Below, in pieces: positions 17,475-38,265 of a stretch of DNA of 64,000 nt. Source of the DNA: Giardia intestinalis (Eukaryota). The translations under genes and the position numbers were made by a program. The notes beneath the pieces were generated by a model, which saw only the letters and a program-made list of their open reading frames with translations, did not search any database and was not told the origin of the DNA. The stretch is taken from the NCBI GenBank assembly GCA_000002435.2, contig CM018790.1; one strand, 5' to 3'. Each line of letters begins with the position of its first letter. Position 1 is the stretch's first letter.

Positions 17475-18766
17475 CGAATGGCCTTAATCCTCTTAACGAA
17501 CTTTTTGTAGGCGCCATCACTCTTAGCTTTCTTCTCAGCTATACTCAAAGCGTCAGAACCAGGATCGTGGTCAAACCACTTACTAGTATTCCCATCCTTA
17601 GCCGGTATATGTGCTTCCCTATCCAGTAGCAGCTCAGCACAGTCCAATTTACCATGGTGCAGTGCATACATGAGAGCGGTAGCACCCCAAGAATCCTGCA
17701 TACCCCCCTCCTTCTCGAGTAAGAGCTTGACACAGTCTACATAGCCGTTCTCTGCTGCTAGCATGAGGGCGGTCCAACCATAACCACTCCTCATGCCCCC
17801 CTCCTTCTCCAGGAGTAGTCTGACACACTCTTGGTGGCCATTCTGTGCTGCACATATAAGGGCGGTCTTACCAAATTTATCCTTTATACCCCCCTCTTTC
17901 TCTAGGAGCAACTCGACACAGTCTGGGTGACCATTAGCTGCTGCCCACATGAGGGCTGTCTTCCCGTCATGCCTCTGCATGCCTCCCTGCTTCTCCAGGA
18001 GTAGTCTGACACAGTTTGGGTGACCATTCTGTGCTGCTAGCATGAGGGCGGTCCAACCGTAATCACTCCTCATGCCCCCCTCCTTCTCGAGTAGGAGCTT
18101 GACACAGTCTGTATAGCCATTCTGTGCTGCATTCATGAGTGCTGTCCAGCTATTACCATCCTTCTTCCCCGTTTCCTGAAGATTACTCCTAACTGCATCA
18201 GCATCTCCAATGGAAGCAGCATACATAAGGCTCGTCCAGCCCGAGACATCACGTTCACCCTTGTGCTTCACCAGTAGCTTGACACAGTCTGGGTGGCCGT
18301 TCTCTGCTGCTAGCATGAGGGCTGTCTTCCCATCATGCCTCTGCATACCCCCCTCCTTCTCTAGGAGCAACTCGACACAGTCTGGGTGACCATTAGCTGC
18401 TGCACGCATAAGTGCAGTCCAGCCATCCTTGTTTACCATCCTGCTCTCTTTCTTTAATAGGAGTTTGGTGCATTCTGTGTGGCCATTCTGTGCTACCAGC
18501 ATGAGAGCTGTCTTATCATAATTATCCTTCATACCCCCCTCCTTCTCGAGTAAGAGCTTGACACAGTCTACATAGCCGTTCTCTGCTGCCCACATGAGGG
18601 CTGTCCAGCCATACTCATTCTGCTTACGGATTAGATCGGACGTAGCACCCAGCAATTTCTCGACGCATTCAGAGTCACCCCCCTTAGCAGCCCGCATGAG
18701 CTCGGTCATACCACGCAGGGGGCTGTCGGCTTCAACACCCCTGCGATCAACATCGCTCTGCGCCAT
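17468..18766 (-). CDS. Ankyrin-repeat protein (Giardia 'Protein 21.1'-type), about 12 tandem 33-aa repeats
   Basis: It has regular repeats 'GWTALMxAAxNGHxDCVKLLLEKEGGM'. The ORF-track start at 18955 is a GTG and that leader is GC-rich and non-protein-like. I place the start at ATG 18766 ('MAQSDVDRRG'), preceded on the minus strand by 'gagaaaataaaaATG'. Confidence 0.8.
   Translation of the reverse strand: MAQSDVDRRGVEADSPLRGMTELMRAAKGGDSECVEKLLGATSDLIRKQNEYGWTALMWAAENGYVDCVKLLLEKEGGMKDNYDKTALMLVAQNGHTECTKLLLKKESRMVNKDGWTALMRAAANGHPDCVELLLEKEGGMQRHDGKTALMLAAENGHPDCVKLLVKHKGERDVSGWTSLMYAASIGDADAVRSNLQETGKKDGNSWTALMNAAQNGYTDCVKLLLEKEGGMRSDYGWTALMLAAQNGHPNCVRLLLEKQGGMQRHDGKTALMWAAANGHPDCVELLLEKEGGIKDKFGKTALICAAQNGHQECVRLLLEKEGGMRSGYGWTALMLAAENGYVDCVKLLLEKEGGMQDSWGATALMYALHHGKLDCAELLLDREAHIPAKDGNTSKWFDHDPGSDALSIAEKKAKSDGAYKKFVKRIKAIRQ
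17640..18640. repeat. Intragenic tandem array of 99-bp ankyrin-repeat units with near-identical copies
   Basis: A 58-bp segment 'tacccccctccttctcgagtaagagcttgacacagtctacatagccgttctctgctgc' is identical at 17701-17758 and 18532-18589, 831 bp (3 x 277) apart. Many other units share long identical runs. Confidence 0.7.
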
Positions 18767-18779
18767 TTTTATTTTCTCT

Positions 18780-21700
18780 CCTGGCCAAGTGCATGAGACC
18801 GCAATTATTTCGTAATTTACACTACTCCGGGCTGCGACCGGCCGGAGCTCGCCAAGTAGACCAGCCATCTGAGGCAGAGGCGGACACTTATGTAGGAACC
18901 AAGGGCCTTCCCCTCCTGCTCTATAGACGGATGGCCACGAGACGCGGCACATCACCTACTCGTTGGTAGGGGCTTCTCGACGGCAGTGGAACGCTGCTTC
19001 CTTGTGTTGTGTCCGCAGGTGTCGAGCCCAGGTAACAAGCATGTTGCTGTGTCAGGTTCAGGATCAACTTGCAGGGATGGATTCACTCCACCCACCGGTT
19101 ACTTTCAGTGCTGTGCTGCTCCCCCCAGGCGGGTCAGGCATCCACGCTAACCCGCAGACTTGTGAACGCGTCCGGGACAGCCTCCATTGGAGACTTGGGA
19201 CTCCAGCATTGCAATGGCACGCTGGGCAGCCTGTGCCCTGTCCTCTTGCTGTGTCGGGCTCCTCACTAACGATCCCCGCCGGCTAGGAGCAGGACTGACC
19301 CGCTGGTCGGCTCGCCGGTGCCCGCTCCCTGGTCCCATGTAGAAACGGGAGGGCCTCTCGACTGCCTCGCCTGCGATGACGATGCGAAGGGAGCTCTACC
19401 TCTTCAACAGAGCTTGCCTCCGTCTCCGGATATAGCCAAAGATTCTACGGGTTTACTAATGGAATCTTAGATGTCCACAGGCAGAGGACCGGCAACAGCC
19501 AATTATTTCCAGCATTCTTCTGCTGAGCCCACACCTGCATGCGTGGTCCAAGGATCGCGCAGGTAAGCCAACTTCCCGTGCCGCTTGCGTGAAGACGGGG
19601 CAAGTCAGGGCTGGCGGATCTGGGCTCTCCCGTCAACCTTACTTTGAGCCCAAGCTTTTCTGGAGACCTCCGATGACTCCATCCAATCGACACCTGTGCA
19701 CAAGAACACCCGGTGTCTATCCTTTTCATTGTGTTGGGATCACTCTGGCCTTGGTGATTAGTCGTTCTCCTTTCCTCAACTGACATTATCTACTCAGCGG
19801 AGATCACAGGGGTCAGCTGGAAGTGGTCTGGAGGGCAGTGGGCGATTGACTCTCGGGTCCATCTGACGGCCTCATCAGGTGCTCATTCTCACTTGGACAA
19901 CTTTGATGACTGTGGAATAAACTGTCCATTCTGCATGTAATTGGGGGCGCTCCATTTCTATGGGGCTTTACCCTTCCACCGTAACAGTCCATCCGAGGAT
20001 GTTTCCATATTTATCACGTGCACCTACCAACAAGCCGCGAGTTTAGCCTTTGTCTTTGGTTCTGATCGTTGGAATGATTGCGTCTTCCCCTATATTAAAT
20101 TCCCCTGTCAGACGAAGGATAGACATAACAGCCATCCAGTGCTTCGTATCTAGTCCGGTTGCTTGAACAACCCGCAGTGCTGTCTCGCGTTTGTGTCATG
20201 ATCGAACGTGCTTCCTACCGTTCTCCCTTGCAAGCATTCTACGCACCTGCGAGCTGTATGTTGCTGCCCTAGTCGGGGCTGTGTTTCTACAGATGGTAGC
20301 CCTAACCCTATGCAACGAGCTACCTTCTCTTGAAAAAGGTTATAAAAAATAGGTCTTTCATGGGACTTTCAGGCCAGTCTGCAGGCAGGGCCCCAAAAGC
20401 ATTACACTGAACCTATTTGGATGGTGGGATAGGCACGTTCTCAGAGGATTCCGCCAGGTAGCAGGCGCTTTAGTCACACCGAGCGAGTAGACGCGGAACT
20501 ATAACAGGGCCTTAGGTCGTCTTCTCTGGCCGTCTCCCGTCTAGCATTCGTCCAATAGCCAGCACCAGACCGAAGTCTCAGCCTTAGACGGGCAGTCGTC
20601 ACATCGCGCTAGACTCCGGCTTCCTTAATCAAGGGGCCATTCAACGCGGAGCTCTTCCGGATACACAGCCCCCCGGATGGACCAGCTCAACAAGCCTCCT
20701 TGCAGGGGACCTCGTTGGGCATGGCTGGCGGCCGTCGGCTCCTGAGCAGGGGAGCTCATCCATTTCCCGGCGGTGGGCAGTGCACCCCCTCCGGCGCACC
20801 CACTCGTGCCAGGAGGCGTGTACAGGACGATCAGAGATGTAGTTGTGCCTGATGGCCACATCCAGGATGCAGACATGGAGGTAATAGTATACCTGTCAAG
20901 ACAGCACACGACTTCCCTACAGCTCCTTGGCGTGTCGGCGCACGCAGGCAGAGGACCAGCCAGGGTGGACTCCGTGGCTGACCAGCTGCACATCAGCCCT
21001 AGCTCACGGCCCAGAGAGCATTCAGTCGCCTGTTACCGGACGGGCCTGTCTGGTAGATCGTTGGCCCAGACCGCGGTGTTCGAGTCGTCTGCGCACACGG
21101 GAGAGACCTGCCTTCTCCTGCTGTGTGTGGTCTCTTCAACGATGTGTAAGCTGCGTCTGGTGGGCCCTGCGCTGTGCCGTGGTTGAGCATGCTGCACGCT
21201 CTAGGCATGACGGCCTCGCCACTGACCAGGCTCCGGCCATTAGCTGCTCCTACCAACCACTCTTCGCCAACCACCGAGCAAGCCGGGCTCTTCAGTCTTT
21301 AGCCCTTACTGGGGCACGTATCAGCGCACCCAGGCACGCCTCCGTAGCCCACAGGGGGGAAGCATGGCACGCACGCGAAGGCAACGGGCGACCCGAGGAG
21401 ACCCTGGCCCGTCTGGAGCGGGAGGACGCCGGGCCCAGGAACGACCCCGGGCGGGAGGGCGAGGACGAGGCACCCCGGCGCGTGCGGGGGCAGAAGCGCA
21501 GAGACCGCGCCCGGGGCAACAAAGACCGGCCCCCCGACGGGCGGCACCAGCGGAGGCGCGGCGCAACCAAGAACGCAGGGGGGCGGGGGAGAGGCCGCCA
21601 CAGGAGATGCCTCCTCCTCCTGCTTGGCCGCCCTCGGGCCGTATGTGCGGCGCGGCAGCACCACCCCGTGCTCCTCCAGGGCGGCGCGGACGTCCTGGGT

Positions 21701-24330
21701 GCGGAGCGCGTTGTTGTACGTCATCCGCAGCTCCTGGCGCGGATACTTCATCCCGAAGCGCTCGTGGACCCTGCGGTAGAAGTCCGGGCCCAGGATGCTC
21801 CGGTCCCTGACCCCGGCGATGATCATCGCCTTGATGGCCCTGCGGTCCTCGCCGGTCATCTTCACGTTGAGGATGCTCCGCGAGTGCGTCTCGCGGTACC
21901 AGTGGTAGATCCTGCTCCGGTCCTCGGACAGGGCGCGGGCGATCTTCTTCCAGTCGATGGCCGTCCGGAGCACGTGCCGGTGGAGGAGCAGCGGCCGCCG
22001 CACGAGGCTCTCGGCCGTCTCCCCCAGCCGCCGGGCAGCGACGACCTGCTTCGCGAGCTCGAGCAGAACGGAGGCGCGCGTCTCCGCCGTCATTGCCCCA
22101 GAGCCCATCCGATAGAAGCGGCGATAAAACTAAAAACAGACCAACGAATAATGTGAAATTAAATATGTACAGGCCTTGCACAAAAGCTTTAGCGGGTGTT
22201 TGTTGCCTGCCTGCCCCGGTCCGTCGGGCGAGCAGGGCGCCCCCATCCGGGCCATCGCCGCAGTACGAGTTGGCTTAGGCCGCCACACAGAACAGACTGC
22301 TTTACATACAGCGGCGCCGGGGCTGATGTATTGATCGGAGTTTTTTGGTATTGCCGAGGACCCCTGCCCTCGGCCGCTAGGGAGAGCCGCACCCTGCGCA
22401 GCCCCGGTTTGTCTGCATATGCCCAGAGCTCTGCGGAGGCGGGCAGGCTGGGGCCGTCCCCCTCGTTCGGGGCATCGCCGACGACGAGCTGCTGCCTGCG
22501 GCCTGCGAGGTCCTCCGCTCTGAGAGGGGCCACCGAGTGTCGTGGGCCGCAGCGCTCTGCAAGGCCTGCACACGACCAGAGGCTGCCCAGTTTTTTGAGC
22601 AGTTGGCTCTGGCGCGGATTCTGCGGACGCCTGCTGCCGGCCCGGTCTACAGGGGCGCCCGCGTGTCTACTGTGGCCTGGTGTGCGTGCCTGCGCGTCCT
22701 CCTGCGGCGGCTCCCCTTATGGCGCAGAAAGCCCCGCCTGTCCCCTCCCACCGGGTTCTCCCGACGTGCTCTCTACCGCGCCCAGCCGAGTTTCCAGCGA
22801 ACAAAGGAGTGGCATGACCAAATCAGTCGCCAGATTACAGTGTGATCTGCGGCCGCGAATCTTGCTGGCATCTTACGTGACAGTGGCTCTGGGTGTGCCC
22901 GTTCAGCAGCAGCTGCCTTGAACATAGATACTTAACGTGACCCGTATGCTAATATCTGCTCGCTCAATCTGTACAGAAGGATCTAACGGTATGCCGGCTA
23001 GAGCAGTAGGACTCGTCAGGCGAGCACACCGGAATTGCGTGGAGTACGCATCTCTAAAGGCTTGCATGCCTGGATCTGTGCTCGTCTTCTCACTGAGACC
23101 CCAGTACAGCGAAAGCGTTTAATATAAACAGAAAGCCGTGGTGTCGCTAGGGTCTATTCGGGCCGCTCAACTATACCGAATCATTCCTACCGGTAAAGCC
23201 TGACTGCTTGCTACTAAGCAGAAGAAAGCGACTCCATGGCGGCCAAGCGTGGAATCGGTACGCTGTCAAGCCTCTCGATTCAGATGCAGAGTCTGCAATG
23301 TCCACGTGAGTAGCACACCACCTGGTTGCCGCTTGCCTGTTATAGACTGCAAATCGACACGTAGGCTCGCAGGTCGGCTGCATCTTACTCGGAAATACAA
23401 GACGCTGCTCCTGTCTGGATCACAGATGCGAATCGCCGGTCCCGATGCGCACGAGTGTTACAGAGTAACAAGGAGAGCACCCGTCTATGGCACACAGTCA
23501 CAATTCGAGTGGTGTCCAGCTCTCCTGGAGAAGAGGCATGCCACGATCAACGGCATACTGCTTTGAACACCAGTAAGCACACCTACTATGTCTGCGAGGC
23601 CGAGGGCGGCCGTATCCCCAGCTACTACTTGTCACTCGGACGCACATGTGTGACGAGACGTGCGGGCGCCCTTCATAAAGGCCTCCTGATGCGCAACACA
23701 CGGCCCAACCGCCTCTTCTCTGAGAGACAGATGGATTTTGCTTGTAGTGAGCCATGCTAGCGTAACGGACTTCTGAACACGTCCCTCTGTTGAGGATTCA
23801 GCGGCTACGCACTGGGGCTAGACACGCGTGTTCTGTGGCCAACACGGGACTTGGCCGAGCAAAGGAGGTAACGAGTCGGCGCTTCTGGCCCGATGCTCTG
23901 CGTGACTGCGCCAGAGACCAGGCTGCCAACGTGCCGGTTAAGGAGAAGACGCGATGATCCACCATCGAGGACTGCAGTACCTGCGGAGACGGGCAGGAGC
24001 GACTTTTTATGACCACGAGCCTGAGCCCTTTAAGGTCTGTGCCAGGCTCTTCGCATTACACAGCTCCTCCTCGTGTGTGCCCTCAGAGAGAGCGAACATC
24101 CTCTTCGACAAGCACTTCTGTGGACACCACAGCAGGGATGCATAGTTCCGCGCTGACCATGCCTTAGCCCCATTGGGGTTGGTGACAAAACTACGACTTC
24201 CCTGTCACGAGACATTACGCTCTGTACAGAAGAATGCCAGCGAGTCATGCAAGGCCTGTGGATCTGTCCTTCAACCTTCTTCTGACAGATGTGTGTCTTT
24301 TGACATGCAGCTCTGCATTGCATGACGGTT
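18780..24330. other. GC-rich, ORF-poor island (~5.5 kb) interrupting an otherwise compact gene array
   Basis: Composition switches abruptly from ~50% to >60-70% GC just upstream of the ankyrin gene start at 18766. Only short, mutually overlapping ORFs occur on both strands, except the Myb-like ORF. No rRNA, tRNA or telomere signatures are recognisable. AT-rich sequence resumes near 24330, upstream of the kinesin. Confidence 0.5.
21299..22108 (-). CDS. Myb/SANT-like DNA-binding domain protein with Pro/Gly/Ala-rich C-terminal tail (~70% GC)
   Basis: ATG at 22108 is immediately preceded on the minus strand by a sharply AT-rich segment (22109-22190: 'ttttagttttatcgccgcttctatcggATG'). The N-terminal ~170 aa are protein-like. 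'RTAIDWKKIARALSEDRSRIYHWYRETH' resembles a Myb/SANT repeat (DWKKIA...R...HW). The C-terminal half is P/G/A-rich. All six frames are open across this stretch because of its extreme GC content. Confidence 0.45.
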   Translation of the reverse strand: MGSGAMTAETRASVLLELAKQVVAARRLGETAESLVRRPLLLHRHVLRTAIDWKKIARALSEDRSRIYHWYRETHSRSILNVKMTGEDRRAIKAMIIAGVRDRSILGPDFYRRVHERFGMKYPRQELRMTYNNALRTQDVRAALEEHGVVLPRRTYGPRAAKQEEEASPVAASPPPPCVLGCAAPPLVPPVGGPVFVAPGAVSALLPPHAPGCLVLALPPGVVPGPGVLPLQTGQGLLGSPVAFACVPCFPPVGYGGVPGCADTCPSKG

Positions 24331-24733
24331 CGCCCTCCAAGTGATGGTCTAGAGGACTCAACGCAGTGGTTCCCAAGATATGTGTCCTGAACAGAAGATT
24401 ATACGATCATATACCTCTGAATGTGCACAACATGATTCAATGCTTGCTTTAACGCCCTGTATTCTGATAGTCATAATTTATTTGCATGCCTTTAAAGAAC
24501 TTATCGTTTAAGCTGTTACCGATTTTGGTGCTGCAACTTATTTGCCGCATCTTATCACAAAAGCTTGATATCAAGATATCTTTCACAGACATGAAATAGT
24601 AACCCATGTGTCAGTTTGAATAAATATAAGCGTCCATAGCCTGGTGCTACCAAACAAGCGACGGTGGATGAGTAAATTGAAATGACAAAAGATATAAGAA
24701 GGAAGAGGTACGGCTAAAGATTTCAAAATTTTA

Positions 24734-27700
24734 ATGACTAGCGCTGGGAATCAAGCCGGTCCAACCGCTTCCGGAAAGGAAGTTAACATAGCGGTAGTAG
24801 TGCGTGCACGGCCTCTGAACACACGCGAGGTTGCTCACAGTTCTAAGTCGGTGGTCCGGATTAACACGTCTGCTAATGTTATCGAGATCAGTCAGCAAAA
24901 TAGACAGCAAGCAAAGACTTATTTCTTTGACAAAGTATTCGACGAAACCGCCAGCCAAGAGTTCTTTTATAGACAAGTCGTATCTCCAGTAGTCAAGGAC
25001 TTCCTCGATGGATTTAATTGTACTCTCTTTGCTTACGGTCAGACAGGAACAGGGAAAACATATACAATGATAGGTGATCAAGGGCATTTTACGGGGGACC
25101 GGAGGGTAAAATACGTCGATTTTTCCACCATCCCTCACGCAGGCATGATACCCAGGGTAAGTAATGAGATTTTCTCTGTGCTTGATAGTCAAAATGCAGA
25201 TTACCAAGTTCGCGTTTCGCACATGGAGGTCTATTGTGAAGAAATCTATGACTTACTCAAAGATTCATCTGACGAGCGAGAGGCGCTTAAACTTTTCGAA
25301 GAGCGGTCTTCATACGGAGTTACTCCAAAAGGTCATAGAGCAGATGAGGCTAAAGAATCCAAAGACTCTACTGCCCTGCCCTCCACCAACCTTCTTCAAC
25401 CAGGGGACAAAGCAGGTGGAAGACTCGTTATTTTGGGCCTTGAGGAGGTTCTTGTCAAATCTCCTGGGGAGATCATGTCTCTTTTGATTAAGTCGACCGA
25501 GAATCGACGCGTGGCAGAGACTAAGATGAATTCCAGCTCATCACGCTCTCATTCCATCTTCACTATATGTCTAATTGTAAAGGAAACGGCGCCTTCTTCT
25601 AATAACAATACCGATATCGATGTCATACGTATTTCGAAGCTGAACCTTGTGGACTTGGCAGGTAGCGAATCAGCCGGTAAATCGGGTGCATCAGGAGATC
25701 GCCAGCAAGAAGCCAGTAAGATAAATAAGAGCCTTCTTACGCTTGGCCGTGTCATCAACGCTCTCACAGAGACAAAGCAGCATATTCCGTACAGAGAGTC
25801 TAAGCTGACCCGTCTACTACAGGATTCACTCGGTGGCCGAACAAAGACATGCATAATTGCGACCATTACCACAGCAGACCTGGCATTAGACGAAACCACT
25901 AACACCCTAGAGTACATGTCAAGAGCTAAGAAGATCAAAAATCTACCAGAGGTGACCACGAAGATTAGCGGCAAATCCGTATTGAAGGAATACTCCCTGG
26001 AGATAAAGCGCCTACGGGAGCTGCTCTCTGCTCAAAAGGATGCTCAGGGAGGAATCTTTCTTACCGTTGAAAACTATGACGAGATGAATGAGGCGGCGCG
26101 CGTTAACAAGGCCCAGATCGCAGACCTAGAAGCGCGGATACAGCAAGCAACTAAGGAGATGGAGCGAGTCACCGCACTGTTGGTTTCAGGGGAGCAGAAG
26201 GTCGAGAAGCTGAAGCTAGCTTTGAATAAGACGGTAGAAAAGGTGAATGAGCTCCACGAGGAGAAGTGTCGGCTTTATGAGAAGATTGTTCTTGGTCGTG
26301 ATAAAGAAAAGATTAACGCAGCACAGCTGGATCACCTTAGGGCTAACGGGGCCTCTCTCATTCTTGAAAATGTATTTGGTCTAGATTCTCTTCGTCACAT
26401 GATTGATAAGAGCGGGATTTCCTCTGCGATAATAGAGATAGAGAAAACCGTATCTGCTTGCAAGGCAGAGCTCTCACTCTTCTCAAAAGCCCTTACCCAG
26501 GTCCTAGATGAGCATAAGAGGAACTTAGATGGTGGCTTGGAAAAGCTGTTGGAGAAGCTTATGGTTCCTGTTCTCAAAAGCTCTGCAGAAGTGCTTGGTA
26601 CAAGCATTCCAGGACTTTTAGAGACAGACTTATTGGGGAAGTTGTCGTCTGAGATGAAAAGCCATCTTATGGAGGAGGCACGACAAGGATTATCTTCCTT
26701 TATTGTTAATCCTCAAATCGAGCTCCTTCGCAAGCTGACAGAAGGGTCTACTGCATCCCTGGGCTTACTTGATAACTTGTCTAGTGCGCTCGATAAGTCT
26801 TCCGAATCGGTTCAGTTGCTACTGCAAAATATCTTAGCGCAGATTCAGGTTTTTGCTGAGAAGGAAACAGCATTTCTTTCGGGGCTGGATTCATTTCTAG
26901 CAAGAGAAGTGGAGCATCGTACGCACGCACTGGTCTCTAATCTGGAGAAACAGCTGCAAGCCGCGCACAAAAGTGTTCTTTCGGAGTTTACTGAAGTGCT
27001 AAGATCTAGTACTCAGGAGTTGAAGGACAGTCTCGCTAATCAGTGCAATACTCAACATGGTCGGATCGGCGTACTGACAGATACTGTCGACACATGGAGA
27101 GCTAAAGACGTACCTACTGTAGTTGAAAGATACGCAGACATCACTCGACAACTCAGTGAGCTCCGTTCGTCCATGAACCTTTCTCAAGCCATCGTGTCTA
27201 GTCACACAGACTCTGTCAAGGACGCTACGTCTAAGTATGAAGAGCTTCTTGAGAGGTCTTTTGATAAGGAGGTAACAGGAAGTATAGCGGCACCCATTAC
27301 CAAATCCATAAAACAGCTAACACAGATTGGGGAAACATTAATGGACATGATGGATGCCTTCACAGTCCAGCTAGGCAGCATCTCTAATACATCTCATGCT
27401 ACGCTTGTGGAGAGAACTGCGCAACTTTCTCACACATATATTCAGGAAGGTGTTGTAGACAAACTTCTGAGCGGGGCTGTGCTAGATTCTACAATTCGAG
27501 ATAGTGCTCCAGCAATTTCCTTGCTGGCCGCAGATCTTGAGAAGGATTGTTTGGCCACTGCTGACGGTGCCTCAGAGGGCACCTTTGCTATGGTTACCAA
27601 CATGGCCGTGTGCTCCATCTCAGATCTGATCAGTCGCTTTGAGGCTTCTGTAGCGTCTGCATTCTCAACCCTGGTTTCTAATTTCCACCTTACGCCTGTT

Positions 27701-33461: not shown

Positions 33462-33570
33462 CTACAAGGTTTCAACTGACATTGCGTTTAAGATTATAGG
33501 TAAGCAGCAAAATTTGAGAAAGGCGCAAAATTTTCATTTTTTGGGAAGATTAAAATCAAATTGGCACGAG

Positions 33571-35691
33571 ATGTCGAGCATCGAGCTTCCCGAAGGCTAC
33601 CGCTTCCAGACGACTTTGGCGGCAGGAGAGTACAGCATGCTCTTCCTGGCCATGGGAAACGACTACCAGGAGGTCGCTATCAAGAGCTTTGATTGCACGC
33701 AGATGGACGATGCACAAGTCTCGGAAATTCACCGCCAGGCCCTACTCCTGAAGTCCGTTAACCATCCGCTGGTACTCAAGGTATATGACGTCCAGATGAA
33801 CATTACGCGCACGCGCCTGCACGTGATCATGGAGCCCTTCTTCAAGACGCTTCAGAACCTCATCGACGAGTGTGAGAAGGCAGATCGCTCGCTCCTCAAC
33901 AACATCGTCTGCCAGGTGGCCTACCAGGTCATCAAGGGGCTCCACTATCTCTCCACCACCAACCATGTCGCGGTCAACGAGCAGGGACAGGAGTTCTCGC
34001 AGGACAAGATCTTCCACTCGTTTATCACACCGAACGACATTGTGTTCAACACCTCCGGAGTTGTGAAGCTTATGAACATCTTCCCCCTGGAGCATAGGAT
34101 GCTCTATGAAAAGGGCGACGCCAGCTTCCCGGGGCTCGCCTATGCGTCGCCTGAGTTTCTCAACAGGGAATACACCGAGTGCCCTGCCGATGTGTGGTCT
34201 GCGGGCGCGTGCATTTTCGCCATGGCTATGCGCAGGCCCCCGTTCAACTCTACCAACGTGGAGTCCCTAAGGGTGGAGGTCGAAGAAGGAAAGAAGGATG
34301 GCCTCGATATCAGCTTCAGCCGCGAGCTTGATGACATGCTCCAGCGCATGATGACGCCGGACCAGGGCTACAGGCCCACTGCCGGCGATCTCCTCAACGA
34401 CCCCTCAATCACCGAGGCGGCGTACGAGATCGAAGCGGGCGGCCTGCAAAACCCGTGGATGGCAATCGGCTTCTCCAGGCCGATCTCTCAGGCAGTGGCC
34501 CCTGTGTCCAACGACTCCCCGGTCCTCGCCCTGGATCCGAACAATGTGTACCCGATTGCCTTCGATGACAACAACCCATGGGAGAGGTACTGGCTTAACG
34601 CTCCTCGTCCAGATGCGACAGTCGACGCAGCCTCCTACACCAGGGGCACTATCGGCGAGGAAGTGGTTGCAAGGGTCCCGACACCACCGCCCGAGATGGA
34701 TATGTATGCCACGATGGATGATGCCTACAAGGGTGCCAACGATGAGTCCGCCTACTACGCCCCTGATAGCTATTATGGCAGTGCCCCTGCAGAGAGCGTC
34801 ATGGACGTCGCGCAAGTTGTGCGGGTGGAGACGCCTCCTCCAGAGCCTGATGCCTATGCTGACGCGGGCGCTCAGGGCAATGACTATAAGGTGGACGATG
34901 AGGCAGCGGCCTACGCACTCACCAGCTACTACGGTGATGCGCCTGCGGACAGCATCATGCTTACCGATGATGAGGTAGTCCACAGGATTCCCACACCACT
35001 GCCAGAAGGGGTGGCAGAGGTAGTTGTAAAGAGGAGCGCACCAGCCCCGGTCCCAACCCCAGCCCCGCTCATGGAAACGGCACCTGAGTCCAAGACTGTC
35101 ACTGCTCTTATGAACGCGGTTCGAACGGGCAAAAACGATGTTGTGCAGAGGCTCGTCGGAGAGCACTCCGGAGACATCGGATGGAAGACGCCCAACGAGA
35201 AGAAGACCGCCCTCATGGTCGCTGCGGATCTTGGGAACGCCGAGGCTGTCGAGTTGCTGGCGCCATGTGAGTGTGGTGAGGTAGACTCGGATGGCTGGCG
35301 AGCGATCGATTACGCCGCCCAAAACGGTAATGTCAGGGCCGTCAACGCTCTTCTTCAGTACGAGGGAGACATGCCTATCGTGCGCAAGGACGGATGCACG
35401 CCGCTCTTCCAGGCGGTGTTCTGGAACAAGCCGGACTGTGTGAGGGCACTCGCTCCTAAGTACGCCGGCGCAACGACGACAAGCCACTACTGGCAGGGGG
35501 AGGGCTTTACGGCCCTCATGGAGGCGGCTAAGTGCTGCCGCGTCGAGTGCGTTGAGATTCTGGCGCCCTATGAAGCGAAGATGACGGACAAAAAGGGTCA
35601 TACAGCACTCTACCACTGTGAGCACGCGTGGGACCATATTCTCGATGACGCCAAGAAGGAGGAATGCATCAGGATCCTCGAGAGGGCCTAG
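33571..35691 (+). CDS. NEK-like pseudokinase with C-terminal ankyrin repeats
   Basis: The track start at 33514 is a TTG, so I use the first in-frame ATG, at 33571 ('MSSIELPEGY'), which has AT-rich sequence upstream. Kinase-like N-terminus: beta3 'VAIK' is present, but 'HSFITPNDIVFN' replaces HRDLKPxN with no catalytic Asp and there is no DFG; 'ASPEF' and 'DVWSAGACIF' are retained. The C-terminal ankyrin module is 'PLFQAVFWNKPDCVRALAP...HYWQGEGFTALMEAAKCCRVECVEIL'. Confidence 0.8.
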   Translation: MSSIELPEGYRFQTTLAAGEYSMLFLAMGNDYQEVAIKSFDCTQMDDAQVSEIHRQALLLKSVNHPLVLKVYDVQMNITRTRLHVIMEPFFKTLQNLIDECEKADRSLLNNIVCQVAYQVIKGLHYLSTTNHVAVNEQGQEFSQDKIFHSFITPNDIVFNTSGVVKLMNIFPLEHRMLYEKGDASFPGLAYASPEFLNREYTECPADVWSAGACIFAMAMRRPPFNSTNVESLRVEVEEGKKDGLDISFSRELDDMLQRMMTPDQGYRPTAGDLLNDPSITEAAYEIEAGGLQNPWMAIGFSRPISQAVAPVSNDSPVLALDPNNVYPIAFDDNNPWERYWLNAPRPDATVDAASYTRGTIGEEVVARVPTPPPEMDMYATMDDAYKGANDESAYYAPDSYYGSAPAESVMDVAQVVRVETPPPEPDAYADAGAQGNDYKVDDEAAAYALTSYYGDAPADSIMLTDDEVVHRIPTPLPEGVAEVVVKRSAPAPVPTPAPLMETAPESKTVTALMNAVRTGKNDVVQRLVGEHSGDIGWKTPNEKKTALMVAADLGNAEAVELLAPCECGEVDSDGWRAIDYAAQNGNVRAVNALLQYEGDMPIVRKDGCTPLFQAVFWNKPDCVRALAPKYAGATTTSHYWQGEGFTALMEAAKCCRVECVEILAPYEAKMTDKKGHTALYHCEHAWDHILDDAKKEECIRILERA

Positions 35692-35765
35692 GAGCTCTAG
35701 ACTCCCGGAGAGTAAAGCGCCTGCGTGGCTTTGTTAAAATTCACAAATTACAGAAAAAAGTGAGG

Positions 35766-36521
35766 ATGGACCCCATGGAGGTTGAGGTTATCCGTACGCC
35801 GTCCGACTCAGACATAGCTGGTTCCGGGGGGCCCGCGACTGCGGTGCCCATGAGCAGGGCCGCTCCAGCGCCCCAGGCCACAGGGGAAGATCCTCAGACG
35901 CTCCCGAGGCTGACCACGCTTGTCAACCCTGACGAAGGGGTGACGGAGCTCATGGTTGCTGCTCGCCGCGGAGACGAAGAGACCGTCATGGCACTCTTGG
36001 ACGAGCAGGCATGCCAGGTCGATGCACGAGGGCGTACAGCACTCATGTATGCCGCCGAGATGGGCAGATCATCCATTGTGGAGCTGCTTAAGGACCGCGA
36101 GGCAGGCATCCAGGACTCGTTTCTGTGGACGGCGCTCTTCTATGCGGCGCAAAACGGGCACCTCGTCTGCGTCTCCATGCTTGCACCTCTTGAAGCAAAG
36201 ATACAGCGCAAAGATGGCTGCACTGCCCTCTTCCTAGCAGTCTTTTGGAACCACATCGAGTGCGCCCGCATCCTCGCTCCTCTAGAGGCGGGGATCACAA
36301 CAAACTACAAACACTGGCAGGGCGGAGAGTACACGGCCCTCATGGAAGCAGCGAGGTGGGCCCGTTTGGAATGCATTGAACTTCTTGTCGAGCAGGAGCA
36401 CGGTATGAAGGACGCGTCTGGAAATAGGGCAATTGACTACGCCCGTGCTCCCTACGCACACGTCCCGGAAGATCGCAAAGAGCAGTCCATACAGCTTCTT
36501 GAGCAGTATGAGCGCGACTAG
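35766..36521 (+). CDS. Short ankyrin-repeat protein (kinase-less paralog of neighbouring NEK-ANK genes)
   Basis: The listed ORF ATG at 35664 overlaps the upstream gene. I prefer the internal ATG at 35766 ('MDPMEVEV'), which is preceded by 'acagaaaaaagtgagg'. It contains only the shared module: 'TALMYAAEMGRSSIVELL...ALFLAVFWNHIECARILAPLEA...KHWQGGEYTALMEAARWARLECIELL'. Confidence 0.7.
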   Translation: MDPMEVEVIRTPSDSDIAGSGGPATAVPMSRAAPAPQATGEDPQTLPRLTTLVNPDEGVTELMVAARRGDEETVMALLDEQACQVDARGRTALMYAAEMGRSSIVELLKDREAGIQDSFLWTALFYAAQNGHLVCVSMLAPLEAKIQRKDGCTALFLAVFWNHIECARILAPLEAGITTNYKHWQGGEYTALMEAARWARLECIELLVEQEHGMKDASGNRAIDYARAPYAHVPEDRKEQSIQLLEQYERD

Positions 36522-36641
36522 ATCGCTGCCGGCGCATTCTCTAGCATCCCCTGCCGCTGAGTGAACATCTGTGACCACAGTAAAGCGAATTTAAAATGGA
36601 ATTTGGGGTTTTTGGTCAAACCGCTTAAAGCGGGCAATAAA

Positions 36642-38189
36642 ATGGACGGCCAGGCCTTTGCCATGGACTACCAGCCCGTTGCGGACATCTACTCCACCGG
36701 CGTGCACGAGATTGCCTCTGCACGCTCGACCAGGGATCCTAGCTCGAACATCGCTCTCTTCACCTGCTCCTATGGCGGGTTTGACGAGTCGGACCGAGCT
36801 ACCCTCAGGAGGCGCACGGGCGAGTACTGCGAGTTCAACAACTCGTCGACCGCTGTCCAGCCGGATCTTCTTAGCCCTTATCTGGCGCGTCTGTCCCACT
36901 ACTTCAACGACGATGCGTCTGCCCTCCTGACCATGGGTCTTCCTTACGGAGTTAACACCCTCTACGACGTGATGATGGCGAAGGCTCAGTCATACAGCAA
37001 CTTCACCGAGGAGGAGGTCTGGCGCGTGGTTGCGGCCCTCTGTGATGCCGCGCGCTTCATGCACAGCGAGGAGAAACCCGACACAGAACTGGAGGAGTTT
37101 GCGCACCTTGGCATCCACCCTGCCAACATCTTCCTGTACGCTGACGGCGCCCGTATCAGGCTTGGGTACCCGTACATCTGCCCCACAATGAGTTTCAAGA
37201 ACCCAGGCAATTACAGGGCCTTCCAGCAGCTCGGCGAGGCGCACTTCATGGCGCCGGAGTTCATCGAGGCTGGCGCCAAGGGCTCGTGTCCTTGTGACAT
37301 ATTCTCTATCGGTATGGTTGGGTATGCCATGATGACAAACTCGACTGCCTGGAGCGCGAGCAATATCAACGATCTGCAGGGAGAGGTGTACACTCGCGGG
37401 GCCATCAGCCTGCCATACGACGGCCGATACAGCCAGGACCTCGTTGATCTCATCAACTCTATGCTTTCCTTCGACTCGTCTGCCCGCCCCAAGGCAGAGC
37501 AGCTCTGTGCAAGCGGAAAGATTGCGCAGTGCATCGCGGAGAACGGAGACGCTCCCACGATGGCTCCTCCGAAGATGACCCGCGATATCGTCCAGCCACC
37601 CAGCGGGCTCACAGACCTCATGATCGCTGCCAGAGACGGCGACCTCAGTGGCGTCAGGAACAACCTCCACCAGGCAGGGTCCACAGACCAGTGCGGCCGC
37701 ACCGCTCTCATGTACGCGGCAGAGCACGGGTACGCCGATTGTGTCCGCGCGATCGTCTCTGACGCAATGGGCCACGGCGAGGTTCGCCTCCAGGACAAGT
37801 ACATGTGGACTGCAACCATGTATGCTGCCCAGAACGGACACGCCGATTGCGTCTCGCTTCTCCACGAGGAGTTCGGGATGCAGCGTCGCGACGGTGCCAC
37901 GGCGCTCTTCACTGCCGTCTTCTGGAACCGTTGCGAGTGCGTCAAGGTGCTCGCCCCGACTGAGGCCATCATCTCCACCAACGACAGGTACTGGCAGGGC
38001 GAGCGCTACACGGCTGCAATGGAGGCCGCAAGGTGGGGACGTCCCGAGTGTCTCCAGGAGCTTCTTGGGTACATCGACAAGTACACTACCGATAATAATG
38101 GGAACGATGTGGCGTACTATGCCATGCACCCATGGGAGCACGTGTCTGCAGATAAGAGCAGCAGAGTGCGTGAGGTCCTGAACCTGTAA
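36642..38189 (+). CDS. NEK-like pseudokinase with C-terminal ankyrin repeats
   Basis: The track start at 36561 is a GTG, so I use the first in-frame ATG, at 36642 ('MDGQAFAMDY'), preceded by 'gcaataaaATG'. The catalytic loop is 'AHLGIHPANIF' (HRDLKPANI with D->G and K->H). 'APEFIE' and 'DIFSIGMVGY' are retained. The C-terminal module is 'ALFTAVFWNRCECVKVLAPTEA...RYWQGERYTAAMEAARWGRPECLQELL'. An AGTAAAT motif lies after the stop. Confidence 0.8.
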   Translation: MDGQAFAMDYQPVADIYSTGVHEIASARSTRDPSSNIALFTCSYGGFDESDRATLRRRTGEYCEFNNSSTAVQPDLLSPYLARLSHYFNDDASALLTMGLPYGVNTLYDVMMAKAQSYSNFTEEEVWRVVAALCDAARFMHSEEKPDTELEEFAHLGIHPANIFLYADGARIRLGYPYICPTMSFKNPGNYRAFQQLGEAHFMAPEFIEAGAKGSCPCDIFSIGMVGYAMMTNSTAWSASNINDLQGEVYTRGAISLPYDGRYSQDLVDLINSMLSFDSSARPKAEQLCASGKIAQCIAENGDAPTMAPPKMTRDIVQPPSGLTDLMIAARDGDLSGVRNNLHQAGSTDQCGRTALMYAAEHGYADCVRAIVSDAMGHGEVRLQDKYMWTATMYAAQNGHADCVSLLHEEFGMQRRDGATALFTAVFWNRCECVKVLAPTEAIISTNDRYWQGERYTAAMEAARWGRPECLQELLGYIDKYTTDNNGNDVAYYAMHPWEHVSADKSSRVREVLNL

Positions 38190-38265
38190 CGTGTCGACTC
38201 GTTAGTAAATCAATCTAAGCTTTACTGCGCAGTTAAAAAAGGCGGACTTTTTTAAAAAGAAATTA

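What the first reader, a model, noticed from the sequence alone, without database searches (positions are those of the whole stretch)
21299..22190. Extremely GC-rich (~70%) Myb/SANT-like gene with a sharply AT-rich promoter, open in all six frames
The ORF has an ATG at 22108 directly abutted by an abrupt AT-rich element, 'ttttagttttatcgccgcttctatcggATG', as at other gene starts in the window. Its N-terminal half is compositionally normal and contains 'RTAIDWKKIARALSEDRSRIYHWY', resembling a Myb/SANT repeat. However, its codons are almost exclusively G/C-ending, far beyond the neighbours, and the C-terminal half is Pro/Gly/Ala-rich. Three additional ORFs of 148-409 aa overlap it in other frames because stop codons are depleted. 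It is either an unusually biased regulatory gene, possibly highly expressed or recently acquired, or a relic within the island.
Basis: partly seen in the sequence, partly recalled or inferred. Interest (0 to 1): 0.6.

Follow-up and report, generated by a model that had tools for sequence, protein, structure and literature searches.

The report
GC-rich multicopy Giardia Myb-like gene
This is a real but uncharacterised Giardia gene, one of at least seven near-identical copies, that probably encodes a DNA-binding protein with two Myb/homeodomain-like helix bundles; its extreme GC content most likely comes from repeated copy-correction between the copies, not from foreign origin or decay.

Summary
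The ORF at 21299-22108 (-) is real and is exactly GL50803_00112150 of Giardia intestinalis WB, annotated "hypothetical protein". GC is 71.5% and GC3 is 89% (96% in the N-terminal 165 codons). Only three of the six frames are stop-free. The two extra open frames follow mechanically from G/C at third positions.

The N-terminal domain defines an unannotated family found only in diplomonads (Giardia, Spironucleus, Trepomonas, Hexamita).

WB carries at least seven copies that are over 90% identical, on four chromosome-sized contigs. The window copy is syntenic in assemblage E. Copies are 99-100% identical across promoter and domain. Single-copy paralogs have normal GC3 (0.47-0.57).

Synonymous divergence between assemblages A and E is 0.085, against 0.47-0.75 in neighbouring genes. 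C and G are used equally at fourfold sites.

Best reading: a double-HTH DNA-binding protein family evolving in concert, made GC-rich by GC-biased gene conversion. Recent acquisition and relic are rejected. Expression is untested.

The parts
21299..22108 (-). Coding sequence of GL50803_00112150 (269 aa plus stop), one of at least 7 near-identical copies in Giardia WB
   Evidence: The ORF is. The sequence exactly matches the cluster member named GL50803_00112150. GC3 of 0.89 against GC2 of 0.54 marks this as the coding frame. There are 20 homologs at E<=0.01.
21644..22108 (-). Conserved N-terminal domain (residues 1-155): nine helices, net charge +14, the family-defining region
   Evidence: pLDDT exceeds 90 over residues 8-150, and the domain-only model has mean pLDDT 90.9 and pTM 0.68. 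There are 34 invariant columns among 21 Giardia sequences. K+R is 31 against D+E of 17.
21869..21994 (-). Predicted Myb/homeodomain-like three-helix unit 1 (residues 39-80; helices 39-48, 53-60, 64-80). It contains W53, W70 and the invariant helix RxRIYHWYRETHxR
21704..21853 (-). Predicted three-helix unit 2 (residues 86-135; helices 86-102, 110-118, 124-135), with the invariant helix ELRMxYNN
   Evidence: Helices are. SNAPc4 aligns over 125 residues, which implies that both units match tandem Myb repeats.
21302..21643 (-). Disordered Pro/Gly/Ala-rich C-terminal tail (residues 156-269)
   Evidence: pLDDT is below 50. The tail is poorly conserved and variable in length among relatives. An allele of 191 aa lacks most of it.
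22121..22200 (-). AT-rich patch upstream of the ATG, the probable core promoter or initiator region
   Evidence: GC is 36% within flanks of 65-75% GC. It is 98-100% identical in the paralogous copy L001. Its position matches the AT-rich upstream regions of other genes in the window. Promoter function is inferred from established knowledge of Giardia promoters and was not tested.
19812..22880 (.). Dispersed repeat unit carrying the gene, also present in a different genomic context (L001: annexin and zf-RING neighbours)
   Evidence: It is 84.5% identical over 3.1 kb to L001, with a sharp upstream edge near 22880 and gradual decay downstream. The neighbours differ.
21483..22282 (.). Homogenised core of the repeat: 98-100% identity between copies, covering the promoter and the N-terminal domain
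   Evidence: From the 100-bp identity bins. GC correlates with inter-copy identity (Spearman 0.47, p=0.008).
20927..22156 (+). Antisense 409-aa ORF, judged spurious
   Evidence: Its codons are the exact reverse complements of the sense codons. An antisense stop would need a sense codon TTA, CTA or TCA, and these are avoided when GC3 is 0.9 or higher. No Pfam hits were found in the six island ORFs tested outside the CDS; this ORF itself was not scanned.
21321..22181 (-). 286-aa ORF in the sense strand's +2 frame, judged spurious
   Evidence: Its first codon base is the third base of the real codons, which is G or C in 89-96% of cases, so T-initial stop codons are excluded.
21364..21810 (+). 148-aa antisense ORF, judged spurious
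   Evidence: In this frame the middle codon base is the complement of the sense third position, so only TGA can occur. The frame has 4 stops elsewhere in the CDS.

Best explanation
The ORF is a functional gene, GL50803_00112150 of Giardia intestinalis WB. It belongs to an uncharacterised protein family found only in diplomonads.

The conserved, basic N-terminal domain of about 150 residues is predicted to fold as an N-terminal helix followed by two Myb/SANT/homeodomain-like three-helix bundles. The most conserved segments are the third helices of these bundles, RxRIYHWYRETHxR and ELRMxYNN. By analogy with Myb repeats, these would be the recognition helices that lie in the DNA major groove. The Pro/Gly/Ala-rich tail is disordered and would act as an effector or interaction region. 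The protein is therefore most likely a nuclear, sequence-specific DNA-binding regulator. This function is inferred, not shown.

The gene sits in a repeat unit of about 3 kb that occurs at seven or more loci on four chromosome-sized contigs. The copies are kept 98-100% identical across promoter and domain by ectopic gene conversion. Conversion biased towards G/C has driven third codon positions to about 96% GC and the non-coding part of the unit to 60-67% GC. It also suppresses synonymous change. That gene conversion is the cause is inferred from these patterns. The AT-rich promoter patch survives because it is under selection. The extra open frames are a mechanical side effect of the G/C-ending codons.
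For: Gene identity and copy number:
- The protein matches GL50803_00112150 exactly. Six further WB loci are more than 90% identical, on contigs of 1.54, 1.97, 2.76 and 4.02 Mb. All are intact.

Family:
- There are 70 representative proteins at E<1e-3. All named ones come from Giardia, Spironucleus, Trepomonas or Hexamita. All are annotated as hypothetical and none has a Pfam domain.

Fold:
- Two independent AlphaFold runs give the same nine helices with pLDDT above 90.
- Relatives give recurrent weak hits to HTH_23, Myb_DNA-bind_8 and Myb_DNA-bind_6.
- hhalign places the segment in register with c-Myb R3.
- The invariant residues concentrate in the third helices, and the domain has a net charge of +14.

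Purifying selection:
- dN between assemblages A and E is 0.040, against neighbour dS of 0.47-0.75.

Conversion and GC:
- Copies are 99-100% identical over 21483-22282, with a sharp upstream edge at about 22880 in a different genomic context.
- GC tracks inter-copy identity (Spearman rho 0.47, p=0.008).
- The non-coding parts of the unit are 60-67% GC, against 49% for the rest of the window.
- GC3 is high in the multicopy subfamily in assemblages A, B and E (0.85-0.95). It is normal (0.47-0.57) in four other subfamilies.
- dS between A and E is only 0.085.
- C:G at fourfold sites is 77:77, where highly expressed Giardia genes predict 95.6 C (z=-3.1, p=0.002, reference table from PMC8393687).
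- Upstream of the gene, derived W>S variants are shared by two or more copies more often than S>W variants (14/20 against 10/34; Fisher p=0.005).
- Giardia genes involved in gene-conversion events are reported to be GC-enriched (PMC12669663).
Against: - No curated Myb/SANT/homeodomain profile is matched.
- The structure is predicted, not solved. DNA binding, nuclear localisation and expression are all untested.
- gBGC has not been separated from selection on synonymous sites. CAI against the high-expression codon set is 0.75, the highest in the window.
- The polarised-substitution test uses only four copies, from different isolates, with one outgroup. It is exposed to mis-polarisation.
- The low A-E dS could also reflect genetic exchange between assemblages.
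- DNA was available for the window copy only among the WB copies. The other copies analysed at the DNA level come from other isolates or metagenome assemblies.
Confidence: 0.55

Rival explanations
1. The extreme G/C-ending codon usage is translational selection on a very highly expressed gene. Gene conversion plays no causal role in the composition.
For: All 26 optimal codons of Giardia end in G or C, and CAI correlates with GC3 (PMC8393687). The gene's CAI against the high-expression set is 0.75, while the other ORFs in the window score 0.37-0.65. Seven copies could also serve a need for high dosage.
Against: Fourfold sites use C and G equally (77:77), whereas the high-expression set prefers C (95.6 expected; z=-3.1). 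The non-optimal codons CGG (10, against 11 CGC) and GTG (5, against 5 GTC) are common. Non-coding DNA inside the repeat unit is also 60-67% GC. A regulatory DNA-binding protein is not an obvious candidate for very high expression. No expression data were obtained.
Confidence: 0.2
2. The ~3-kb unit is, or was, a mobile element, and the protein is its element-encoded DNA-binding factor. It would resemble the HTH domains of Tc1/mariner transposases or the Myb-like proteins of Harbinger elements.
Against: There are no terminal inverted, long terminal or tandem repeats. No transposase, integrase or RT domain was found in the unit or in longer family members. The downstream edge decays gradually rather than ending cleanly. 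The window copy occupies the same syntenic position in assemblage E. The family has ordinary single-copy members across diplomonads. No relatives were found in viral contigs.
Confidence: 0.08
3. The helical domain is not a DNA binder. It would be a SANT-like or Cdc5-like protein, histone or RNA interaction module, so the protein works in chromatin or RNA processing rather than as a sequence-specific transcription factor.
Against: The domain is strongly basic (+14), whereas SANT domains are typically acidic (established knowledge). The invariant residues lie in the two putative recognition helices and include Arg, Asn and Tyr residues typical of base contacts. The best long match is the DNA-bound SNAPc4 Myb array.
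Confidence: 0.15
4. The ORF is a chance open frame, a decaying relic, or a recent foreign acquisition within a GC-rich island.
For: At 71.5% GC, a 269-codon open frame is not very rare by chance (p about 0.008 per frame). Three frames are open. About 5 kb around the gene has no other recognisable gene.
Against: GC3 is 0.96 against GC2 of 0.47 in the domain. Intact orthologs and paralogs exist in assemblages A1, A2, B and E and in three other diplomonad genera. The locus is syntenic in assemblage E. dN is about a tenth of the neighbours' dS. The fold prediction is confident. No homologs were found outside diplomonads.
Confidence: 0.02

Closest known systems
Myb/SANT DNA-binding repeats (c-Myb R2R3, plant R2R3-MYB such as WER; Pfam PF00249 and relatives)
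   Different: No Pfam Myb, SANT or homeodomain profile is matched at any useful threshold. The first Trp of each repeat is replaced by Leu or Ile, and the spacing is shorter. Extra helices are present (8-26, 32-37, 138-146). The family is restricted to diplomonads. DNA binding is unproven.
SNAPc subunit 4 (SNAP190) Myb-repeat array
   Different: Identity is 12% and rmsd is 4.9 A. SNAPc4 has 4.5 repeats and functions within a multisubunit snRNA-promoter complex. This family has several paralogs per genome and a different overall architecture. There is no evidence of orthology.
   Same: It comes from the same organism. It is a presumed helix-turn-helix transcription regulator with Myb-type repeats.
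   Different: gMyb2 is a canonical Myb protein recognised by standard profiles, and it is single-copy. The present protein matches no Myb profile, belongs to a separate diplomonad-only family and is multicopy. Any link to encystation is untested.
Bipartite HTH DNA-binding domain of Tc1/mariner transposases (Tc3A)
   Different: There is no DDE catalytic domain, no terminal inverted repeats and no target-site duplications. One copy is syntenic between assemblages.
GC-biased gene conversion in concertedly evolving multigene families (for example GC-rich histone and Hsp70 paralogs in mammals, and rDNA; established knowledge)
   Same: Copies are near-identical and dispersed, with a homogenised tract. 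GC rises in both coding third positions and non-coding tract DNA. C and G enrichment is strand-symmetric. dS is reduced. Derived W>S variants are shared by more copies.
   Different: This is in Giardia, whose recombination biology is debated. The bias itself has not been measured directly, and the contribution of codon selection remains unresolved.

Membership tests
Myb/SANT (Pfam Myb_DNA-binding PF00249 and related Myb_DNA-bind_x families) | Match to a curated profile at or above its gathering score | tested here: not met
   No Pfam family matches at E<=10 for the protein. Among 43 relatives there are only sub-threshold hits: Myb_DNA-bind_8 in 6 (best E 0.022) and Myb_DNA-bind_6 in 4 (best E 0.0086).
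Myb/SANT (Pfam Myb_DNA-binding PF00249 and related Myb_DNA-bind_x families) | Three-helix bundle of about 50 residues with a helix-turn-helix formed by helices 2 and 3 | tested here: met
Myb/SANT (Pfam Myb_DNA-binding PF00249 and related Myb_DNA-bind_x families) | Three regularly spaced Trp (or aromatic) residues, 18-19 apart, forming the core of each repeat | tested here: inconclusive
   Unit 1 has L35-x17-W53-x16-W70 and unit 2 has I92-x18-Y111-x19-Y131. All are invariant in the Giardia alignment. The first position is aliphatic and the spacing in unit 1 is short. W53 and W70 align with the second and third Trp of c-Myb R3.
Myb/SANT (Pfam Myb_DNA-binding PF00249 and related Myb_DNA-bind_x families) | Sequence-specific DNA binding through the third helix | not testable with these tools
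   Only indirect support is available. The third helices are the most conserved segments, and the domain has a net charge of +14.
Transposase-type HTH (HTH_23 / HTH_Tnp_1 / Tc3-like) as part of a DNA transposon | HTH domain linked to a DDE or other catalytic domain, or encoded within an element that has terminal repeats | tested here: not met
   No catalytic domain is present in this protein or in the longer relatives. No Pfam hits were found in the island ORFs. There are no TIRs, LTRs or tandem repeats in 18700-24800.
Transposase-type HTH (HTH_23 / HTH_Tnp_1 / Tc3-like) as part of a DNA transposon | Profile match to HTH_23 or a related family above threshold | tested here: not met
   HTH_23 is hit in 10 of 43 relatives, but the best E is 0.0084 and all scores are below the gathering score. 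The window protein itself has no hit.
Concertedly evolving multigene family under GC-biased gene conversion | Several dispersed copies that are more alike within a genome than expected from their age | tested here: met
   There are seven WB loci, on four chromosome-sized contigs, that are more than 90% identical and fall in one 90% cluster. The locus predates the split between assemblages A and E, as shown by synteny. Even so, the copies are 99-100% identical in the core.
Concertedly evolving multigene family under GC-biased gene conversion | GC enrichment that follows the converted tract, including its non-coding DNA, and is absent from single-copy relatives | tested here: met
   The non-coding unit DNA is 60-67% GC, against 49-51% outside it. 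GC correlates with identity (Spearman rho 0.47, p=0.008). The other subfamilies have GC3 of 0.47-0.57.
Concertedly evolving multigene family under GC-biased gene conversion | Fixation bias favouring W>S over S>W changes | tested here: inconclusive
   Derived W>S variants are shared by two or more of four copies in 14 of 20 cases, against 10 of 34 for S>W (Fisher p=0.005). The sample is small, the copies come from mixed isolates, there is a single outgroup, and mis-polarisation is possible.
Translationally optimised, highly expressed Giardia genes | Codon usage matching the high-expression set, including its preference for C over G at fourfold sites | tested here: not met
   CAI is high (0.75). 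However, C:G is 77:77 against 95.6 C expected (z=-3.1, p=0.002), and the non-optimal codons CGG and GTG are frequent.
Translationally optimised, highly expressed Giardia genes | High measured mRNA or protein abundance | not testable with these tools
   No paper in the library mentions the gene IDs. No expression data could be reached.

The most novel reading that the evidence does not exclude
The ~3-kb GC-rich unit may be a self-propagating 'conversion cassette'. It would be a dispersed repeat that carries its own promoter and a double-HTH protein. It would spread and homogenise itself by ectopic, GC-biased gene conversion, with no transposase. The protein would bind sites in the unit or in the neighbouring variable gene clusters (VSP, NEK, ankyrin 21.1). 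That would link a diplomonad-specific DNA-binding family to the organisation or regulation of Giardia's variable genome compartments.
Probability: 0.08. Interest if true: 0.7.

Novelty: new variant of a known kind. Interest (0 to 1): 0.38.

Why it matters
Few transcription regulators are known in Giardia. A family that is conserved across diplomonads, missed by Pfam and carries a confident tandem Myb/homeodomain-like fold is a concrete new candidate class. One of its subfamilies is amplified to seven near-identical copies.

The locus is also a compact natural test of gene conversion, and of any GC bias in it, in an organism whose sexual and recombination status is still debated. Third positions are 96% GC. 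Synonymous divergence is 5-9 times lower than in neighbouring genes. Single-copy paralogs have normal composition.

For annotation, the case shows that the long overlapping ORFs in Giardia's GC-rich genes are by-products of codon bias and should not be called as genes.

Tried and rejected
- Pfam scan of the protein at E<=10: no hit.
- PDB sequence-profile searches with two alignments: only chance hits at E of 0.8 or above.
- Foldseek against the PDB and against viral structures: nothing significant. The afdb50 library was unavailable.
- Rfam search of the window at gathering thresholds, and of the island at E<=1: nothing credible. No tRNAs were found.
- Pfam scan of the ten longest stop-to-stop segments of the island: nothing.
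- Search for terminal, inverted or tandem repeats that would mark a transposon: none.
- Scans of metagenome and viral contig collections for relatives: none.
- Exact look-ups of the WB proteins to fetch the other six WB loci: not on record. The other copies' DNA therefore came from other isolates or metagenomes (L001, L005, L011-L014).
- Literature searches by gene ID: no mentions. Supplements of PMC12669663 are not held.
- A suspected head-to-head duplicate in L012 turned out to be a spurious GC-rich ORF.
- The CDS part of the polarised-substitution count was discarded. L011 and L012 carry an internal deletion that misaligns the 3' end.
- HGT, relic and six-frame-open readings were rejected, as set out under the rival explanations.

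Full report
OBSERVATION

The minus-strand ORF at 21299-22108 (269 aa, ATG at 22108) exists as described. The quoted AT-rich string directly precedes it.
- The CDS is 71.5% GC, with GC1/2/3 of 0.72/0.54/0.89.
- In the first 165 codons GC3 is 0.96 while GC2 is 0.47.
- The other long ORFs of the window have GC3 of 0.43-0.75, and the rest of the window is 49% GC.
- Published genome-wide figures put Giardia genes at a mean of 48.95% GC (SD 5.2, range 39-81%) (PMC8393687). This gene therefore lies about 4 SD out, but it is not the extreme.
- The motif RTAIDWKKIARALSEDRSRIYHWY begins at residue 48. The last 114 residues are 51% Pro+Gly+Ala.

The claim 'open in all six frames' is wrong. Across the CDS the plus-strand frames have 0, 4 and 4 stops. 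The minus-strand frames have 0, 6 and 2.

The 409-aa antisense ORF is the exact codon-by-codon complement of the gene. The 286-aa ORF starts each codon on the gene's third base. With G or C there, T-initial stop codons cannot form. These ORFs are mechanical by-products.

At this composition a 269-codon open frame has a chance probability of about 0.008 per frame. Length alone proves little. The codon-position periodicity and the homologs do.

IDENTITY

The protein is identical to GL50803_00112150 of Giardia intestinalis WB, annotated 'hypothetical protein'. Its 90%-identity cluster holds six further WB loci: 61066, 60974, d60974, 103981, 137682 and 114778. They lie on contigs of 1.54, 1.97, 2.76 and 4.02 Mb. 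All are intact and they differ by a few residues.

Orthologs of this subfamily occur in assemblage A2 (DHA2_153281), B (GSB_153196) and E (GLP15_5233). More distant paralogs (35-47% identity) occur in every Giardia genome.

A profile search of 1.8 billion representative proteins found 70 proteins at E<1e-3. Every one that carries a name is from Giardia, Spironucleus salmonicida, Trepomonas or Hexamita inflata. All are 'hypothetical' and none has a Pfam domain. Nothing was found in metagenome or viral contigs. No paper in the library mentions the gene IDs.

WHAT THE PROTEIN IS

Pfam gives no hit at E<=10. PDB sequence-profile searches give only noise.

AlphaFold models residues 8-150 with pLDDT above 90, using 21 sequences. 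A domain-only run with 43 diverse sequences gives mean pLDDT 90.9 and pTM 0.68. Both runs show the same nine helices, while residues 155-269 are disordered.

The helices group as follows:
- an N-terminal helix (8-26);
- a short helix (32-37);
- two three-helix units (39-48/53-60/64-80 and 86-102/110-118/124-135);
- a final helix (138-146).

Scanning 43 family members individually gives recurrent sub-threshold hits to HTH_23 (10 members), Myb_DNA-bind_8 (6) and Myb_DNA-bind_6 (4).

The invariant residues of the Giardia alignment cluster in the two third helices (R64, R66, H69-T74, R77; E126-M129, Y131-N133). They also form a hydrophobic ladder: L35/W53/W70 and I92/Y111/Y131. The domain has a net charge of +14.

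I conclude that this is a divergent tandem Myb/homeodomain-like HTH domain, probably DNA-binding, followed by a disordered effector tail. The fold is a prediction and the function is an inference.

GENOMIC CONTEXT

The gene lies in a 5.8-kb stretch (18956-24733) with no other credible gene. That is unusual for compact Giardia. The stretch sits between an ankyrin 'protein 21.1' gene and a kinesin gene.

The same arrangement (TCP-1, Mlf1IP, kinesin, 2.7-kb spacer, then this gene) is present in assemblage E (P15). There the contig ends inside the gene. This copy therefore predates the A/E split.

Window 19812-22880 also recurs in a quite different context, with annexin and zf-RING neighbours, in another assemblage-A assembly (L001). 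Identity along that unit is as follows:
- 98-100% over 21483-22282 (promoter plus domain);
- 91-98% upstream, up to a sharp edge near 22880;
- gradual decay downstream.

In assemblage B a copy sits between a VSP gene and a NEK/ankyrin kinase gene. No terminal inverted, long terminal or tandem repeats and no transposase or RT remnants were found.

WHY IT IS SO GC-RICH

High GC3 is shared by the multicopy subfamily in assemblages A (0.89-0.90), B (0.85) and E (0.95). Four other subfamilies have GC3 of 0.47-0.57.
- Non-coding DNA within the repeat unit is 60-67% GC, against 51% in the adjacent non-repeat spacer.
- GC tracks inter-copy identity (Spearman rho 0.47, p=0.008).
- Between assemblages A and E, the domain's dS is 0.085 while the three neighbouring genes show 0.47-0.75. 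Its dN (0.040) equals that of kinesin (0.042). Synonymous sites are therefore 5-9 times slower, and the protein is under purifying selection relative to the neutral rate.
- CAI against the published high-expression codon set is 0.75, the highest in the window.
- However, fourfold sites use C and G equally (77:77), whereas that set predicts 95.6 C (z=-3.1, p=0.002). The non-optimal codons CGG and GTG are common.
- In the upstream non-coding part, derived W>S variants are shared by two or more copies more often than S>W variants (14/20 against 10/34; p=0.005). This is a small and imperfect test.
- Independent work reports that Giardia genes in gene-conversion events are GC-enriched (median 0.541 against 0.488; PMC12669663).

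Together this favours GC-biased gene conversion among the dispersed copies, with the AT-rich promoter patch preserved by selection. Translational selection may contribute and is not excluded.

VERDICT

The Myb/SANT idea holds at fold level but not as family membership. 'Acquired' and 'relic' are rejected.

The gene itself is already annotated, as hypothetical. What is new is the structural assignment of an unannotated diplomonad family, and the recognition that this subfamily is a concertedly evolving, conversion-shaped repeat. Interest is moderate.

Noticed in passing
window 18749-20689 (best 18846-20040); L002 8173-10097: A ~1.9-kb non-coding module lies between the gene's 3' end and the ankyrin 21.1 gene. 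It is 89-95% identical to DNA downstream of the distant paralog DHA2_153000 in another isolate, although the flanking genes there are only about 70% alike. Mismatches show no period-3 pattern. There is no ORF longer than 114 aa, and no Pfam or Rfam hit.
   Followed up: partly
window 22109-24733; L014 5324-8000: A 2.6-kb gene-free spacer separates this gene from the divergently oriented kinesin gene. It is retained in assemblage E at 54-87% identity. Such a long spacer is unusual for Giardia's compact genome, and its ORFs have no Pfam hits.
   Followed up: partly
L002 7149-7375 versus window 21337-21594: DNA lying after the stop codon of the paralog DHA2_153000 is 69% identical to the tail-coding part of the window gene. 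This suggests a remnant of a GC-rich tail or a past rearrangement or conversion at that locus.
   Followed up: no
L002 12554-12879 (-) and 12102-12140; window 19082-19120: A reverse-transcriptase (RVT_1) gene lies about 1.7 kb beyond the ankyrin gene at the paralogous locus. A 39-nt stretch next to it matches the window's non-coding module at 90%.
   Followed up: no
L011 906-1481; L012 and L013 2141-2716: An allele of 191 aa (P0003) was seen in three metagenome assemblies. It lacks most of the Pro/Gly/Ala tail but keeps the N-terminal domain intact, so the tail tolerates large deletions.
   Followed up: partly
window 33500-38200: This is a second GC-rich block (55-63% GC). Its ORFs have GC3 of 0.72-0.75 and are overlapped by long antisense ORFs (34405-35637 and 36990-38141, minus strand). 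These are probably the same codon-bias artefact.
   Followed up: no
window 17669-18625: The ankyrin 'protein 21.1' gene is internally repetitive at the DNA level, with 66-87% identity between repeat units.
   Followed up: no
L005 404-1777 and 6043-7515: In assemblage B, the copy of this gene is flanked by a VSP gene and a NEK/ankyrin kinase gene. Copies therefore tend to sit among Giardia's variable gene families.
   Followed up: no
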